DNA of 64,000 nt. Source: Eledone cirrhosa. Taxonomy: Eukaryota. The stretch is taken from the NCBI GenBank assembly GCA_964016885.1, contig OZ024741.1:99882001-99946000 (forward strand), written 5' to 3'. Positions 6,381 through 26,200 of the stretch are shown piece after piece. Made by a program: the position numbers and the translations under genes. How positions within the stretch are numbered: position 1 is the first letter of the stretch; each line of letters opens with the position of its first letter. A model generated the notes under the pieces. The model saw only the letters and a list, made by a program, of their open reading frames with translations, was not told the DNA's origin and made no database searches.

Positions 6381-6978
6381 TATAATAAAATATGGAGAAA
6401 AATACTGCAGGTAGCGCATGGATAACATGTAATAAAATGAGTCCCTCATCAGTGATTTGCCGACGATCATAGAAATTTCATTGCATTAAAAATCATATAC
6501 CTCACGTCGGTGCAATATAACTAAAATAAGTTATTAGGACAATTAAAACGCGTAAAGCGAGTGAGACAGGAGAACAACAAAGAGTATAGCTAACCGTAGG
6601 GGAATGAAACCAGCTTCATAATTTTTCTGTTTAGCATAAGCTAGGTGAATATATGAGCGCTTTAGAAAAAAGACCTTACACGAACGAGGGCCATGTGAGA
6701 AGAGAGAAAAAATATAGCTTTCGTCGTGGACAGGATGAAGTGAAGAGAGGAGAAACAGTGAGTGAGTGAAAGTGTGAGGAAGAGTTAACTGACATGACAG
6801 AGGGGGCGAAAGAAAGTAGGAGAAACAGAGAGAATGGGGGAACAGTAAGAGAGAGAGAGAAAAACACAGAATCGCAGTTTGGGTAAATATATGTAATAAA
6901 ATATGGAGAAAAATACTGCAGGTAGCGCATGGATAACATGTAATAAAATGAGTCCCTCATCAGTGATTTGCCGACGAT
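6381..6978 (-). mobile_element. Non-coding partial-tandem element (family P, ~513-bp unit + ~85-bp repeat) between TA tracts
   Basis: 6381-6467 repeated at 6893-6978; homologous to 11507-12597 and 57542-58345. Confidence 0.85.
6441..6540 (-). ncRNA. Candidate permuted/pseudoknotted hammerhead-like RNA (family P copy A)
   Basis: GUCC-[AUAACU/AGUUAU hairpin]-AUUGCA-CCGACG-uga-GGUAUA-UGAUUU-uuaa-UGCAAU-GAA-AUUUCU-augau-CGUCGG-c-AAAUCA-CUGAUGA-G-GGAC. Confidence 0.6.
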
Positions 6979-6985
6979 ATATATA

Positions 6986-7163
6986 TAACGAAGGAAATGT
7001 GGTAAGTAACCAGGTGGACCATAACGCACCAAAGTACTCAATACTTAGGGTAGTAGAGTGGGTAATAGGAACGAGTAGGACTCCGACGGCTGAGCTCAAG
7101 CCGTTTCGACGGCTAATTCTGGACTAAAATGGTTCAGAATTAGCCGTCGGCGTCCTGCTCGTT

Positions 7164-7166
<3 letters not shown>
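6986..7166. mobile_element. Short fold-back TA-inserted element (other copies 33430-33630, 47793-47955)
   Basis: Shared head TAACGAAGGA..GTACTCAATACTTAGGG; terminal inverted repeat ATAGGAACGAG..CCGACGGCT / AGCCGTCGG..CTCGTTCCTAT. Confidence 0.75.
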
Positions 7167-11429: not shown

Positions 11430-11512
<83 letters not shown>

Positions 11513-11566
11513 ATATGGGTGAGTAGAATACTGCTGGTTGCACATGGATAACATGTTATAAAATGA

Positions 11567-11668
11567 GTCCCTCATCAGTGATTTACCAAACGATCATGGG
11601 TATTTCATCGCATTAAAAATCATATACCTCACGTTGGAGCGATAATAACTAAAATAAGTTATTAGGAC
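11567..11668 (-). ncRNA. Candidate permuted hammerhead-like RNA (family P copy A2-1)
   Basis: GUCC-UAAUAACU(uauuuu)AGUUAUUA-UCGC-u-CCAACG-uga-GGUAUA^UGAUUU-uuaau-GCGAU-GAA-AUACC-caugau-CGUUUGG-u-AAAUCA-CUGAUGA-G-GGAC. Confidence 0.65.
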
Positions 11669-12098
11669 AAAAGAAACGCGTAAAGCGAGTGAGACAAGTA
11701 AACAACACAGGGGGAAGCTAACCGAAGATGGAAATAAACATAAGCAACATAGTTATTCTTTCAGCATAAGCTGTGTGAATATATGAGCGAGTCAAGAAAA
11801 CAGACCTTTCGCTAGTGAATCCGGTGTTAGAAAGAATGAAAACCGTTTTCCCAGCGAACGGGAGGAAGAAAGAAGGGAGAAACAGGGACTGAGTGAGTGG
11901 GAGTGCGAGGAAGAGGTCAGTAGAGAGAAAGAGTTAACTGACGTGGCAGAGGGGACGAAAGAAAGTAAGAGAGTAAGAGAGAACGAGGGAGCAGTAAGAG
12001 TGTAAGAGAGAAACACAGAATTGCAGTTGGGTAAATATATGAAAATATGGGTGAGTAGAATACTGCTGGTTGCACATGGATAACATGTTATAAAATGA

Positions 12099-12200
12099 GT
12101 CCCTCATCAGTGATTTACCAAACGATCATGGGTATTTCATCGCATTAAAAATCATATACCTCACGTTGGAGCGATAATAACTAAAATAAGTTATTAGGAC
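12099..12200 (-). ncRNA. Candidate permuted hammerhead-like RNA (family P copy A2-2)
   Basis: Identical to 11567-11668, one unit (532 bp) away. Confidence 0.65.
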
Positions 12201-12819
12201 AAAAGAAACGCGTAAAGCGAGTGAGACAAGTAAACAACACAGGGGGAAGCTAACCGAAGATGGAAATAAACACAAGCAACATAGTTATTCTTTCAGCATA
12301 AGCTGTGTGAATATATGAGCGAGTCAAGAAAACAGACCTTTCGCTAGTGAATCCGGTGTTAGAAAGAATGAAAACCGTTTTCCCAGCGAACGGGAGGAAG
12401 AAAGAAGGGAGAAACAGGGACTGAGTGAGTGGGAGTGCGAGGAAGAGGTCAGTAGAGAGAAAGAGTTAACTGACGTGGCAGAGGGGACGAAAGAAAGTAA
12501 GAGAGTAAGAGAGAACGAGGGAGCAGTAAGAGTGTAAGAGAGAAACACAGAATTGCAGTTTGGGTAAATATATGAAAATATGGGTGAGTAGAATACTATA
12601 TATATATATATATTATATATATATGTTTCTATGTACATAAATATACGCATAAGCACATACAAACACACGCCAACATCACGCACACACACACACATACACA
12701 TATATATGCATATATGTATATATGTTTGTATATATGCATACATAAATATGTGTGTATATGTATATATATAAGTGCATATATATATATATATGTGTGTGTG
12801 TAGATAAATTTGATGATCT

Positions 12820-19025: not shown

Positions 19026-21165
19026 ACAGTTGCATTTATCTTGCTTTATGTTCATACGAGTTATCACCAAGTCACAACCAGTGACCTCAAGAGACAACAA
19101 GGTCCGCCTTGTTCAAGAAAGAACATACATACACACACATGCATCTTTAGGTGTTTAGATTTGTGATGTACTTATATTTACAGAATCTCCCTTAGTATAT
19201 GGGAAGTTCCCATTAGTACTATCTTTTGTATTTCTCCTATACGCGGGTTTCCTGGGATTTGCGATAAATAATCATTAGACCCCTTAGGTATCATTCCTAG
19301 AGCGCCTACAACCACTGGTATTGTTTTAGTTCTCAATTTCCACATTTTTCCAATTTCTATCTCCAGGTCCTTATACTTGCTCAATTTTTCAAATGTTTTT
19401 ATAGATACATTCTTGTCTATTGGAACAGACATATCAATTAGCAGGCATACCCTCTTTTTCAAGTCCTTCACTATTATATCAGGTCTATTTGCATCTATTT
19501 TTCGGTCTCTTTGGATGCCAAAGTTCCACAAGATTGAGATGTGGTCTTTTTCATGTATGGGGGTGGTTGATGCTCCCACCAATTCTTTAGATGGGGCTGG
19601 TTAAAATGCTTACACATTACCCAATGTATGTATTGTGCAGCTTTCTCATGCCTGTTTAGGTATTCGGTTGGAGCTATAGGACTGCACATTGAAATTATAT
19701 GATCAATGGTCTCTGGTTGTTTTTTTACATACACGGTATAATGGGTTGCATCCATTTTTTTTATTATGTTGGCTTGGTAATCTTTTGTTGGCAGACACTG
19801 ATCGTGTGCTGATATAATCAGTCCTTCAGTCTCCGATTTCAGTCCAGAGGATGCACACCACTGATGGGTTAAAGTTTTGTCAACATCAGGATTGTTAGCT
19901 CTTTCTGGGTATTTTCCATACAGAGGCTTTTCTTGCTATTTCTTAGCCTGTTTCTGTAGCAGTTCTTTCTTTGCAGTTAATTTTACCTGCTTTTCTTTAT
20001 CTGTGGTTTTCATTTCAGCAGTAAATGGAACTTCTGAGATTTGTAGTCAATTACTGTATCTTTGTGCATCTTTTGTAATGGAGTATGATCTTTTGATGCT
20101 TTCGTGTTTTAAAACGAGTTTGATCATCTAAGGGAATCATGTGATTCCCTTAGATATGTAGATAATCCAATTGTTGCAGTTTTCAACGCAATATCTAACT
20201 GGATTAACCCACGTCCTCCTTCTTTCCTAGGGAGATATATTCTATCTTTATCTGCCTTAGGGTGATGCATTCTGTGCATGGTTAAGAATTTTCTAATTTT
20301 TGTATTGAGCCTACGGATCTCTGTGCTTGACTAGTTGATGACATTGTAACTGTAGGTTACTACTGGTATGGCGAGCATGTTTATGGCATTGATCCTATTC
20401 CTTGCATTCAATTCCGTTTTTAAGATTGCTCTTACTCTGCGGTAACATTCCTTCCTTATCCTTTCCCTCATTGTCGAGTGCTTGATTCAGTCTCCTTCAC
20501 AAACACCTAGATATTTGTAAGTTTCATCTTGATCAAGTTCTCCCCCGATCAAGATTAATGTCTGAACTTCTCAGCAGCTTTTCTCTGGTGAACGTGGCTT
20601 TTTGCGCATTTGCTTAGTCCAAACTCTATTTTAATGTCATCACTGAACTGCTTCACAGTGGATAATAGCCCTTGCAATTGTTCATCATTTTTTGCAAATA
20701 GTTTCAAGTCATCCATGTAGAACAAGTGATTAATGGTTTTGTCATAGACTTTATATCCATGTTTTGTTTCATTGAGCATTTTACTTAATGGTATAAGTGT
20801 GATGCAGAATAAAAGCGGTGACAAAGAGTCACTCTGAAAAATTCCACAATTAATATTAACTTCTCCAGCTTCCAGTGATTTCTTTTCACTATCCAAAAGG
20901 AGTGTCGTTTTCCATGTCTTCACACTGAATAACAGGAACCTCCTGACAACGGGAGATATTTTGAAAATCTCTAAACATTTTTCAATCCAACTGTGTGGCA
21001 AACTATCGAATGCTTTTTTATAATCTATGCAAGCAATTGATAGATTTTTGTGTCTATTATGACAATCTTCCAGTATCATTTTGTTAACCAAAAGCTGATA
21101 TTTACAGTCATATGAGCCTCGTTTACACCCTTTCTGCTCATTGGGAAATAGAGCATTTGTTATCA
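19026..21165 (-). mobile_element. 5'-truncated, decayed R4/Dong-type non-LTR retrotransposon (RT + CCHC + restriction-like endonuclease)
   Basis: IDYKKAFDSLPH, GIFQSDSLSPLLF, HLFYMDDLKL, ETIDHIISMC, RPDIIV..LIDMSVP..EKLSKYKDL..IPVVVGALG; 3' end runs into (TAA)n. Confidence 0.88.
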
Positions 21166-21304
21166 GTATTAATATTATTATTATTGGTCTAAGCGTACGT
21201 ATCTTGCTCGCTCAGAGTAAGTCGCTTTATTTGCCTGTTACCCCCCCCCCCCCCCCCCACACACACCCCACCCCACCACCACCACACACACACACCCCAG
21301 CGAT

Positions 21305-23284: not shown

Positions 23285-26200
23285 ATGGCCGTATTAATAG
23301 TAGGATGTTTAAATGTTCGAGGCCTGGGATCGTCCTGGAAGCAGGGTCACCTGCTCAACGACCTCAGGTCTGAAGACATAGATGTAATTACAGTCATCGA
23401 GACCAGGATTTACGACACGCGCGCACTAGCCCCCATTTTCGACGACTATCAGATCTTTGCATCTGTTAGCCGGCTGGGAATGGGAGGCGGGGTAGCAGTG
23501 CTGTTTAGGAAAAGCCTGGATCGCGAGGTAGGTCGATCTTCCGGGACCCGGACGGGAAGTTGGTGGTCCTGGACGTGAACAATAACGAAGGTGGTGCCTT
23601 TAGACTGGTGGCCGTCTATGCTCCTACTGGGGCAGGACGGCCGGACTTTTTAGACGCCTGGAAGCCTTTCTGGGTACGTCTCGCCCTTTACTGTTAGCGG
23701 GGGACTGGAACGGCATCTTAGACGCACAGTGAGACTGTGTGGGAGTATCCAATAGGAGCGGGGGGTGCAAAAGCCTCAAGAACCTGATCAGCCAGTTCCA
23801 ACTGTCTGACAGATACCGACTAGATTTCCCTAATGCGCCAGTGTGGACCTGGGCTAACCGCATAGGGTCATCTAGATCGTATATAGACTGGATATTCATT
23901 AGGAAAATAGACAGAAATAGTGTAAGCTGTCCACGTTTTGAAACGGTCGCCTATTCAGATCACACGTTTGTAATCTGTATGGTCGACCTAGATAAGATGC
24001 GTAGGTTAGGACCTGGTTACTGGAAGCTAAACATGTCATTTCCGGCACGTAAGGCTTATAGGAACCAGGTCAACAATTTAGTTAAGAAAAAGTTGACAGG
24101 GGGAGTCGTCAACAGTAGATGGTGAGGGGGCTCTCAAAAGAGAGATTAGAGTAATGTCGATAGAGTTTAGCAAAGAAGTAGCGTTAGAGAAAAATAGAAA
24201 GGAGGGGGAGTTGGTAGATAAGTTAGACGAAGCTATTGGTAGTGGCATTGCAACTGACGTGCTAGCGGCGAGAATGGCATTAGACCATTTCTTCAATGCG
24301 AAACACGAAGGTTACATTGTCAGAGCTAAGGCGCGTGCTCTGAGAAACGAGGGAACCAAAGCTGTTCGATGGGCCCGCGTGGCAGAGGCGCAGCGTGGTA
24401 ATAAAACCACGATTCGGTCTTTGACGGATCGAGACGGGCACGATCTGAACGATTCCATGATGATGTGTGAGGCCTTTCCCCAACATTTTGCTCGGTTGTT
24501 CGGGGAAGTGGCGGGTCAGAGATGGTGGCGGACTTCAGTCCCTACCTCAATGGCTTGCCGCAACTCTCGACGGCTGACGCTGGGCGCTGCGAAAGGTCAA
24601 TTACTTCAGCCGAGATTCAGGAAGCCCTTGTCGGCTGCATGAGGCGCAAGTCACCCGGTTTGGATGGTCTGCCCTACGAGCTTTACGTAAATATGCCAGA
24701 CTTGTTCTCCAATCTCCTCGAATACCTCTACTGCAACTGACAGCAAAACGGGAGTATTCCCAGTTCTGTGAGTAGGGGCGGAGTGACGCTGATAAGGAAA
24801 GACAAGAACAAGAGGGACACATTAGACAATTTCAGGCCCATAACTCTGCTCAACACAGAGTTTAAGATTTTGGCCAGGGTCTTAGTGAAGAGGTTGGCGC
24901 TTGTCGTCGGATATTTGGTTGGGGAGGCGCAAACTTGCGCAATCCCATCCAAGTCCATACACGACAACCTTCACCTAATGCGATACATCATAGAGAGGGT
25001 ATGGTGTAAACCTGGCTTCGGTGGGGGCTCTCATCAATTTAGATCAATCGAAAGCATTCGATAGGGTCGACCATCGGTACCTGGAGGCTGTCCTCAAGGC
25101 GGCTGGCTTCGGCCCCGACATGAGAAGCTGGATCGCCGCAATGCACAGCGGCATCTGCTCGATGGTCAACATTAATAGCCACCTCTCGGAACCGTTTCAG
25201 GTCTCCCGATCGGTCCGACAAGGGTGCCCTCTCTCCCCCCTTCTGTACGTATTGACTCTCGAGCCTTTACTGCGGAAGCTGGAACTGTTGCAGGGCATCC
25301 CACTCGAGTCGGGACGCGGAAAGGCTGTGTCGGCTTATGCGGACGACATCACCGTGATGGTGTCGGACACCTCAGAAATCGAGGTGGTCGGCAACTTATT
25401 GGAGGAAAATGAAATGTTGACGGGAGCAAAACTTAACCCGGAAACGTCAGTGGACTTGCAACTCGGCACCTGGAGAGGCAATTCCATGCCGTCCGAGGCG
25501 TCGTTAGGCGCTGGACGGACGGACCGGTAAAGTTGCTAGGGGTTCGGTTCTGGCCAGTCCTCCAGGTGGATAAGAATTGGGACGAGGTGACGGGCAGGGT
25601 AGCCAGTCTCACCCAGAAATGGGCTGGGATGAAGTTATCACTGAAAGGTCGGGCGGAGGTGGCGAACGCGTACATCGCGTCCGTCATCTACTACCGTCTG
25701 ACTGTCGTCCCTTTCCCCCGTTCGCGCCTCGCCATCTTGGAGCGGCTCCTCTTCAAATTCTTGTGGAGGGTTCAGGTTCCCTGGTGAGGCCCTCCATCTG
25801 CTGCCAGCACCCTCTACGTGGAGGGCTAGGCATGCCGTGGCTAATGATGCGCAGGCACGCGCTGAGGCTGCGGTATCTCCAGATATTCTGCCTAAACGGT
25901 GAACAGATGTGGTGGCCGTTTGTCAGACGGGCCTTTACGCAGCTCGTTACTTTGACTGAGCTGCAGTCCTGGGTCAAGAAGAGACCGAGACTGGGTGACT
26001 GGCATCTGGAATGTTGTCAGGAACTCACTGCCCTCTACCAGGCGGGCAATGTGGTCAGTGGAACTTCCACTCTCGAGTTCTATAGAGGATTAGTGGTTTG
26101 CAAGTGCGACGACGCACTCGGAGAGGCTCTGGGAGTCAACGAAGTCGAAAAAACCAGTCTGTACCGGAGGACTTTCGAGCCGGGGACGATGGATAATTTC

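What the first reader, a model, noticed from the sequence alone, without database searches (positions are those of the whole stretch)
11567..11668. Hammerhead core strands in reversed order: candidate new pseudoknotted (permuted) hammerhead topology, supported by covariation
Seen: five copies in three subfamilies (6441-6540 -, 11567-11668 -, 12099-12200 -, 57599-57700 +, 58232-58333 +) keep GGUAUA, UGAAAU and UCACUGAUGA invariant. The 5'->3' order is [III'-UH-I], [GAAA-III], [I'-CUGAUGA], whereas canonical types I/II/III all follow the cyclic order CUGAnGA -> GAAA -> UH. Six helices fit: P1 GUCC/GGAC; P2 hairpin UAAUAACU/AGUUAUUA vs CAACGACU/AGCCGUUG (3 compensatory pairs); P3 AUCGC/GCGAU vs AUUGC/GCAAU; P4 CCGACG/CGUCGG vs CCAACC/GGUUGG; stem III GGUAU/AUACC; stem I UGAUUU/AAAUCA vs UGGUCUU/AAGAUCA. 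Stem II shrinks to one R-U pair opening into a P1/P2/P3 junction. P3, stem III/P4 and stem I cross each other (a triple pseudoknot or cage). Copies A and B1 carry single mismatches. Inference: this is a self-cleaving RNA of a topology that standard type I-III descriptors would miss, acting either as a monomer or between tandem units. Predicted cut is AUA^U (between 11623/11622 on -, 58278/58279 on +). I know of no description of this arrangement but cannot search.
Basis: partly seen in the sequence, partly recalled or inferred. Interest (0 to 1): 0.95.

Follow-up and report, generated by a model that had tools for sequence, protein, structure and literature searches.

The report
Scrambled-order hammerhead ribozyme in animal retrozyme
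A self-cutting RNA motif whose three catalytic pieces come in a scrambled order, until now reported only from virus-like environmental RNAs, sits in thousands of copies of a jumping repeat in an animal genome and appears to be the ribozyme that a large group of animal retrotransposons was thought to lack; cutting has not yet been shown.

Summary
In detail: five copies in the window and at least 12,867 in the 3.0-Gb genome (control 0). The order (cut site, G block, C block) is not new: it is the type-SGC hammerhead validated by Eckert et al. 2023, who found it only in metatranscriptomes.

New here:
(1) It is the ribozyme of a high-copy, 445-647-bp, non-coding tandem repeat with Penelope-type insertion marks, whereas described animal retrozymes carry type I.
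(2) The wiring differs: stem II opens after one pair into a four-way junction that holds the chain ends, and a probable kink-turn joins stem III to the interaction helix. 0 of 216 copies fit the published descriptor.
(3) Read by eye, published Naiad retrotransposon consensuses, said to lack hammerheads, end in the same fold (two octopus, one squid in part) or in type CSG (four nematode): 7 of 14 ends seen.

Subfamily-level changes keep pairing (23 of 30) while private mutations do not (31 of 121). The core is constant in 14 subfamilies. Cleavage, circles and the mobilising partner are inferred, not shown.

Verdict: new variant of a known kind.

The parts
11504..12597 (-). Element B: two head-to-tail 532-bp units plus about 29 nt; begins after and ends in (TA)n
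11567..11668 (-). Ribozyme copy B (3' unit). P1 11668-11665 with 11570-11567; P2 hairpin 11664-11643; P3 11642-11639 with 11611-11608; P4 11637-11632 with 11592-11586 (1-nt bulge); stem III 11628-11624 with 11603-11599; H17 11623; stem I 11622-11617 with 11584-11579; 11.1 = 11607; G12-A15.1 11606-11603; C3-A9 11578-11572; 10.1 = 11571
   Evidence: sequence, alignment and pair counts
11593..11631 (-). Probable kink-turn between stem III and P4: non-bulged strand 11631-11629, bulged strand 11598-11593
   Evidence: against the definition in PMC8191799; inference
12099..12200 (-). Ribozyme copy B (5' unit), identical to 11567-11668; predicted cut 12155/12154
6381..6978 (-). Element A: about 1.2 units, starts inside the ribozyme (partial copy 6978-6945), ends in (TA)n
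6441..6540 (-). Ribozyme copy A, with a private stem III mismatch and a 1-nt loss in P2; predicted cut 6496/6495
57542..58345 (+). Element C: about 1.3 units of 633 bp, ends in (TA)n; internal 127-bp duplication
57599..57700 (+). Ribozyme copy C (5'), private mismatches in P1 and stem I; predicted cut 57645/57646
58232..58333 (+). Ribozyme copy C (3'), all helices intact but G at kink-turn position 2b; predicted cut 58278/58279
57194..57541 (.). Inverted duplication of host flank directly 5' of element C

Best explanation
A hammerhead ribozyme of the non-circular (SGC/CSG/GCS) class serves as the processing ribozyme of a non-autonomous Penelope-type retrozyme. SHOWN: core nucleotides 3-9, 12-15.1, 16.1 and H17; stems I and III; a 10.1-11.1 pair; P2, P3 and P4 by covariation; tandem 445-647-bp units; (TA)n 3' ends; inverted 5'-truncated partners. 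INFERRED fold: 10.1-11.1 plus P3 make the 5-bp stem II of known SGC ribozymes. P4 is their helix that ties stems I and II together. A kink-turn bends stem III onto P4 and closes the cage. P1 and P2 are inserted after 10.1, so the chain ends leave through P1. INFERRED cycle: read-through transcripts of tandem units cut after H17. The unit-length RNA is circularised, helped by about 19 bp (P1, P3, P4, stem III) that hold its two ends in one active site. A Penelope-like reverse transcriptase primes from nicked (TA)n at AU-rich spots 10-70 nt 3' of the core and copies round the circle, giving permuted copies of 1 to 2+ units. The ribozyme probably descends from the 3' end of Naiad elements, which carry the same fold.
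For: Covariation on 16 subfamily representatives: 95.7% of cells paired, 16 of 29 pairs with two-sided change (P2 4 of 7, P3 1 of 4, P4 5 of 6, stem I 5 of 6, 10.1-11.1 in four pair types); slid controls 26-50%. Alternative pair states of the 14 subfamily consensuses keep pairing in 23 of 30 cases (17 two-sided); private mutations do so in 31 of 121 (p = 6e-7). Core: 0 of 11 columns vary among 14 subfamilies, against 50 of 81 other columns; only N7 (U/C) and H17 (A/C) vary. With core positions left free in the search, 91 of the first 100 C blocks and 94 of the first 100 S+G blocks are intact, and H17 is never G (counted by eye). Twice the loss of one base after A9 goes with a G10.1-C11.1 pair. 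An older family M (43 matches, about 80% alike) has other letters in every helix, P1 and stem III included, with the same junction lengths. Geometry matches HRIMA-1. Kink-turn: 1b G 14 of 14, 1n A 14 of 14, 2n G 13 of 14, 2b A 12 of 14, -1b:-1n C:G 14 of 14. Insertions: 168 of 174 terminal copies end in (TA)n within 100 nt of A9 (30% by chance); 63 tandem, 29 head-to-head and 4 tail-to-tail neighbours. 12,867 copies run intact through the cut site, while 514 begin there, so the template was a circle or an uncut multimer. Naiad consensus ends fit in 7 of 14 seen (by eye).
Against: No cleavage or RNA data. Independent events are few (1-3 changes per pair on a tree of the flanks), and the shuffle control ignores kinship; R-scape was not run. 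Among young subfamilies stem III shows no two-sided change, and P1 is constant apart from a mismatch in one old type. About 10 of 100 copies have A at 11.1, facing U in some subfamilies but A or C in others. One small subfamily has a G-A mismatch in stem III. In family M only 1 of 8 copies picked by DNA likeness has U4 intact. The kink-turn is complete in only 11 of 14 subfamilies and 152 of 216 copies, and in family N it looks like a plain 3-nt bulge. No Naiad was found in this genome (0 hits), and none of 50 Penelope-like loci carries the ribozyme within about 1.5 kb. Copies that pass through the cut site also fit an RNA that never cleaves. In Xenopus only 1 of 9 predicted retrozyme dimers cleaved.
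Confidence: 0.76

Rival explanations
1. The core is a working hammerhead, but it forms only by strand exchange between tandem units or two molecules, or only when a kink-turn-binding protein folds it; the monomer cage is not the active form.
For: 63 of 96 close neighbour pairs are tandem. Newt and ASBVd type I hammerheads cleave best as dimers (PMC6155905). Some kink-turns fold only with protein. Nested folding gives no stability signal (z about -1).
Against: SGC-1 and HRIMA-1, with 0-1 nt between stem III and the interaction helix, cleave in constructs holding one ribozyme. Linker lengths are fixed across very divergent families. Naiad_Ovul has one copy and no pLTR.
Confidence: 0.13
2. A conserved but non-cleaving RNA structure: a hammerhead relic kept as a recognition or priming signal for the Penelope reverse transcriptase, or as a C/D-box-like protein-binding module.
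For: Always within about 100 nt of the element's 3' end. Most copies run through the cut site. Weak Rfam hits to C/D snoRNA snR66 (E 0.7-3.5). U4 is changed in most family M copies. No clear excess of 5' ends at the cut site.
Against: Only the positions that hammerheads tolerate (N7, H17 not G) vary in young subfamilies. The would-be D box lies outside the terminal stem and the would-be C box varies with P3, so the snoRNA reading fails; the kink-turn explains the hit.
Confidence: 0.09
3. A DNA satellite or SINE-like repeat whose likeness to a hammerhead is chance.
For: Stems are short and AU-rich, and the copies are related.
Against: Pair-preserving subfamily changes against pair-breaking private ones; the same architecture with other letters in families M and O and in octopus Naiads.
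Confidence: 0.02

Closest known systems
Type-SGC hammerhead ribozymes (HRIMA-1 and SGC variant; Eckert et al. 2023, PMC10085705)
   Same: Block order S-G-C; crossing stems I, II and III; short linker from stem I to stem II; about 5-bp stem II; 1 nt; then an interaction helix abutting stem I.
   Different: Known ones come only from metatranscriptomes, none from genomes of known organisms. Here stem II is split after 10.1 by P1/P2 (four-way junction), the interaction strand lies 5' of block S and is joined to it by 3 nt (kink-turn), 11.1 is mostly U, and 0 of 216 copies fit their descriptors.
Metazoan non-LTR retrozymes (Cervera and de la Pena 2020, PMC7229834; Li et al. 2026, 10.64898/2026.07.22.740005)
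   Same: Short non-coding tandem units of low GC (38-44%), monomers to multimers, one hammerhead per unit, link to Penelope-like elements.
   Different: Described ones carry type I hammerheads; this one carries a non-circular permutation. Circular RNA is not shown here.
Naiad Penelope-like elements (Craig et al. 2021, PMC8557442)
   Same: (TA)n targets and inverted 5'-truncated partners. Two octopus consensus ends show the same four-way SGC fold with the same kink-turn linkers, and one squid end fits in part (by eye).
   Different: Naiads encode EN and RT; this repeat encodes nothing and shares only the ribozyme architecture, not its letters. The authors reported no canonical hammerhead, only 'core' and 'half-core' motifs.
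Standard kink-turn (Huang et al. 2021, PMC8191799)
   Same: 3-nt bulge followed by tandem G:A and A:G pairs, with -1b:-1n = C:G.
   Different: Predicted from sequence only; I saw no report of one closing a hammerhead.

Membership tests
Hammerhead ribozyme (class) | Conserved core C3 U4 G5 A6 G8 A9, G12 A13 A14, A15.1-U16.1, H17 not G | tested here: met
   0 of 11 core columns vary in 14 subfamilies; unbiased 91 of 100 and 94 of 100 intact; exception: U4 in old family M
Hammerhead ribozyme (class) | Stems I and III flanking the core | tested here: met
   97.9% and 97.5% of cells paired; stem I 5 of 6 pairs with two-sided change; stem III changes two-sidedly only between young and old families
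Hammerhead ribozyme (class) | Stem II starting with a 10.1-11.1 pair | tested here: inconclusive
   Paired in 14 of 16 rows in four pair types, A-A in 2, A-C in further copies; the rest of stem II is supplied by P3
Hammerhead ribozyme (class) | Site-specific self-cleavage after H17 | not testable with these tools
   no assay; no RNA run listed
Type-SGC hammerhead (Eckert 2023) | Block order S, G, C with crossing stems | tested here: met
   159 of 216 copies pass with stem II ignored
Type-SGC hammerhead (Eckert 2023) | Helix joining the distal ends of stems I and II | tested here: met
   P4: 5 of 6 pairs with two-sided change
Type-SGC hammerhead (Eckert 2023) | Uninterrupted block C with a 2-6-bp stem II next to it (published descriptor) | tested here: not met
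   0 of 216 strict; 9 of 216 under a relaxed version with an extra base after A9
Non-LTR retrozyme | Short non-coding tandem repeats with one hammerhead per unit, low GC | tested here: met
   445-647-bp spacing in 60 of 63 tandem pairs; 38-44% GC; the one 164-aa frame over element B has no Pfam hit
Non-LTR retrozyme | Hammerhead of type I | tested here: not met
   order is S-G-C
Non-LTR retrozyme | Expression as unit-length linear and circular RNA | not testable with these tools
   no RNA holder listed
Penelope-type mobilisation | (TA)n target bias, partial tandems, inverted 5'-truncated partner | tested here: met
   168 of 174; 63 tandem, 29 head-to-head, 4 tail-to-tail against the description
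Penelope-type mobilisation | Autonomous partner sharing the terminus in the same genome | tested here: inconclusive
   none in 50 loci; only a short low-complexity likeness to one Neptune-like end; Naiad motifs 0 hits
Kink-turn | 3-nt bulge plus tandem G:A and A:G | tested here: met
   all four bases in 11 of 14 subfamilies and 152 of 216 copies
Kink-turn | Folding into the kinked form; L7Ae-family binding | not testable with these tools
   needs FRET, gel shift or a structure

The most novel reading that the evidence does not exclude
Non-circularly permuted hammerheads are not rarities of viroid-like RNAs but the normal ribozyme of the Naiad clade of Penelope-like elements and of the retrozymes derived from them, across animal phyla (CSG in nematodes, a kink-turn-closed four-way SGC in cephalopods). 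Tens of thousands of active genomic copies have then been missed by all standard descriptors, and the cephalopod form is a hammerhead whose folding can be switched by a 15.5K/L7Ae-family protein.
Probability: 0.45. Interest if true: 0.88.

Novelty: new variant of a known kind. Interest (0 to 1): 0.76.

Why it matters
It moves non-circular RNA permutations from unknown environmental replicons into animal chromosomes at very high copy number. It offers a direct, testable answer to why Naiads seemed to lack the hammerhead found in other Penelope-like elements, which removes an argument that these ribozymes are dispensable passengers. It suggests how the distal ends of stem III and the interaction helix meet, a puzzle that Eckert et al. 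left open. It gives many natural, covarying variants for structure work, and a closed ribozyme module whose two ends leave through one helix, which may suit RNA circularisation. It also means genome-wide ribozyme counts are underestimates.

Tried and rejected
Rfam: no hammerhead hit; only microsatellite-driven miRNA hits and weak C/D snoRNA hits. The snoRNA reading was rejected because the D box lies outside the terminal stem.

Five-pair P3 was rejected (bases used twice). An insertion between A9 and 10.1 was rejected because 11.1 covaries with the base right after A9.

Nested folding of the ribozyme: z -0.8 to -1.2, uninformative for pseudoknots. Predicted monomers: z -1.05 and -2.35, so they are not strongly self-paired rods.

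Expression: no RNA holder listed. The three runs of unknown kind from one sample only show the repeat and tandem junctions again and are not independent.

Excess of 5' ends at the cut site: 514 against 368 and 386 in control windows of unequal width, confounded by (TA)n microhomology and by another subfamily in one control; inconclusive.

Metagenomes: 0 hits with the strict pattern. With the loose one, 6 hits; the 5 that my script re-found lack the stems. Viral contigs: 0.

Partner search: none in 50 Penelope-like loci; protein fragments near copies show no fixed side or distance; no coding frame shared upstream of 20 old-family hits; Naiad motifs 0 hits.

Earlier scan notes: nothing by place, by sequence or by words for a permuted form; one search listed unrelated retrozyme notes.

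Whether this genome also holds type-CSG hammerheads was left untested. Weinberg et al. 2015 (hammerhead variants with additional helices) was not held and may bear on the four-way junction.

Full report
OBSERVATION. The window lies in a 3.0-Gb animal genome; that it is a cephalopod is my inference from the likeness described below. Exact patterns find 8,474 (control 0), 1,008 (8), 1,169 (0), 9,255 (1) and 12,867 (0) sites. The patterns overlap, so 12,867 is a lower bound. No Rfam hammerhead family hits the copies.

THE ORDER IS KNOWN. Eckert et al. 2023 (PMC10085705) split the hammerhead into blocks S, G and C and validated type SGC in vitro. I read the abstract, parts 1-5 of 8 of the text including most of the Discussion, and supplement parts 1, 8 and 18 plus one search. 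[quoted passage not shown] Our RNA has their geometry: stem I, a short linker, about 5 bp of stem II (10.1-11.1 plus P3), 1 nt, and a 6-bp interaction helix next to stem I. But 0 of 216 full-length copies fit their descriptors, while 159 of 216 fit when stem II is ignored. The stem II strand is broken after 10.1 by P1 and the P2 hairpin, and the interaction strand is moved 5' of block S and tied to it by 3 nt. It is the SGC fold joined at its ends and reopened in a new helix.

IS THE FOLD SELECTED? From 170 fetched loci and the window I took 216 distinct full-length copies: 166 in 14 subfamilies of 3 or more, and 50 in 46 small clusters. On 16 real representatives (14 subfamilies and 2 older types), with P1 left out because two rows are misaligned there, 95.7% of cells pair and 16 of 29 pairs show two-sided change; slid controls give 26-50%. 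That test ignores kinship, and a tree of the flanks gives only 1-3 changes per pair. A sharper contrast: alternative pair states of subfamily consensuses keep pairing in 23 of 30 cases, private mutations of single copies in 31 of 121 (p = 6e-7). None of 11 core columns varies among subfamilies, against 50 of 81 others. Because the copies were partly retrieved by their core, I repeated the search with core positions free: 91 of the first 100 C blocks and 94 of the first 100 S+G blocks are intact, N7 is U or C, and H17 is A or C (counted by eye). A pattern built on the constant linker gave 71 hits (control 0), including older families. Family M has other letters in all helices, P1 and stem III included, with the same junctions and G10.1-C11.1. 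Against: stem III has no two-sided change among young subfamilies; P1 is constant there; 11.1 is A in about 10 of 100 copies and faces U, A or C; and 7 of 8 family M copies picked by likeness have lost U4.

KINK-TURN. The 3x6 loop between stem III and P4 fits the standard kink-turn (PMC8191799, passages): 1b G 14 of 14, 1n A 14 of 14, 2n G 13 of 14, 2b A 12 of 14, -1b:-1n C:G 14 of 14; all four bases in 11 of 14 subfamilies and 152 of 216 copies. Families M and O keep it; family N appears to have a plain bulge. A bend of about 50 degrees there would fold P4 back to the tips of stems I and II (inference). It also explains the weak hit to a C/D snoRNA.

THE ELEMENT. In 146 merged regions there are 236 ribozyme sites in 137 regions. 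Neighbours within 1.6 kb are tandem in 63 cases (60 of them 445-647 bp apart), head-to-head in 29 and tail-to-tail in 4. Of 174 terminal copies, 168 end in (TA)n within 100 nt of A9 (30% by chance), mostly at +10-19 and +50-69 (one search was the same count before duplicates were removed and is not used). 5' ends vary. These are the marks described for Penelope-like insertions (PMC8557442, passages), and the unit fits non-LTR retrozymes in all but hammerhead type (PMC7229834, passages; bioRxiv 10.64898/2026.07.22.740005, parts 1-3 of 5, supplements closed). The 3' ends lie shortly after the cut site, yet 12,867 copies run back through it and only 514 begin there. So the template was a circle or an uncut multimer, not the cut linear monomer.

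THE NAIAD LINK. Craig et al. 2021 report that Naiads lack canonical hammerheads, and they mark 9 'core' and 8 'half-core' Naiads. I read 14 Naiad 3' ends of their File S1 by eye (parts 14, 24 and 25 and excerpts; for five records only the last 600 letters or so); nothing here was computed. Naiad_Ovul and the record before it (header not seen, probably Naiad_Obim) end in the same four-way SGC fold: different letters in stems I and III, P3 and P4, the same P2 loop as subfamily B, and the same kink-turn linkers. Naiad_Esco shows S-G-C order with stems I and III and P4, but stem II is unclear. Naiad-2_Nbra, Naiad-3_Nbra, the record before Naiad-2_Nbra and the record before Naiad_Hpol (probably Naiad_Hcon) end in clean type-CSG hammerheads with 8-12-bp interaction helices. 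Seven ends gave no fit (Omin, Adux, Skow-1, and the records before Chem-4, Dst-2, Dst-3 and Dst-4). In this genome I found no Naiad and no ribozyme in 50 Penelope-like loci, although such elements are abundant and also end in (TA)n. Naiad ancestry of the ribozyme is therefore likely; which element moves the young subfamilies is open.

NOVELTY. Paper searches (listings only unless stated) showed type SGC only in Eckert et al., and no report of a non-circular hammerhead in an animal genome, a retrozyme or a Naiad. The library lacks most subscription journals. Weinberg et al. 2015, cited for hammerheads with additional helices (PMC13725137, passages), was not held. PMC10162972 and PMC6155905 were seen as passages. 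Hammerhead numbering, the tolerance of N7 and H17, and the clade labels for the local Penelope-like families are from my own knowledge.

VERDICT. A real, selected RNA structure: a member of the hammerhead class by sequence and stems, working like type SGC but outside its published definition, carried by a retrozyme-like repeat. Activity is untested. New variant of a known kind; interest 0.76.

Noticed in passing
window 53205-54690 (+): 5'-truncated Penelope-like element (end of RT, GIY-YIG, about 700-nt 3' UTR ending in (TA)n) of a very abundant family.
   Followed up: partly
window 54400-54437 (+): In that 3' UTR, a hammerhead-like half (4-bp hairpin, G block, palindromic stem III, possible stem I) without a recognisable C block, conserved in the majority sequence of 19 loci. 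Unexplained.
   Followed up: no
window 50063-50125 (-), 50278-50340 (+), 33968-34020 (-), about 54890-54965 (-): Canonical-order minimal type I hammerheads of other repeats, the first two as an inverted head-to-head pair. The genome holds both classes.
   Followed up: no
window 20555-21211 (-) and 24994-25530 (+): Reverse-transcriptase fragments (Pfam RVT_1), probably LINE remnants.
   Followed up: no
window 6990-7165 (-): Another (TA)n-flanked repeat with a GC-rich inverted arm abuts element A and recurs beside other copies (L006, L053, L058).
   Followed up: no
window 41640-43450: About 1.5-kb low-complexity AT-rich microsatellite block that gives spurious long frames and inverted repeats.
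   Followed up: no
L087:1496-1609 (+): Subfamily H can form an alternative continuous 3-bp stem II with one extra base after A9, and has U at kink-turn position 2n: a possible structural switch.
   Followed up: no
L171, L172, L182, L190 3' ends: A Neptune-like family ends in pyrimidine-rich termini resembling the retrozyme's preferred 3' ends (best E 6e-4, low complexity): a weak partner candidate.
   Followed up: partly
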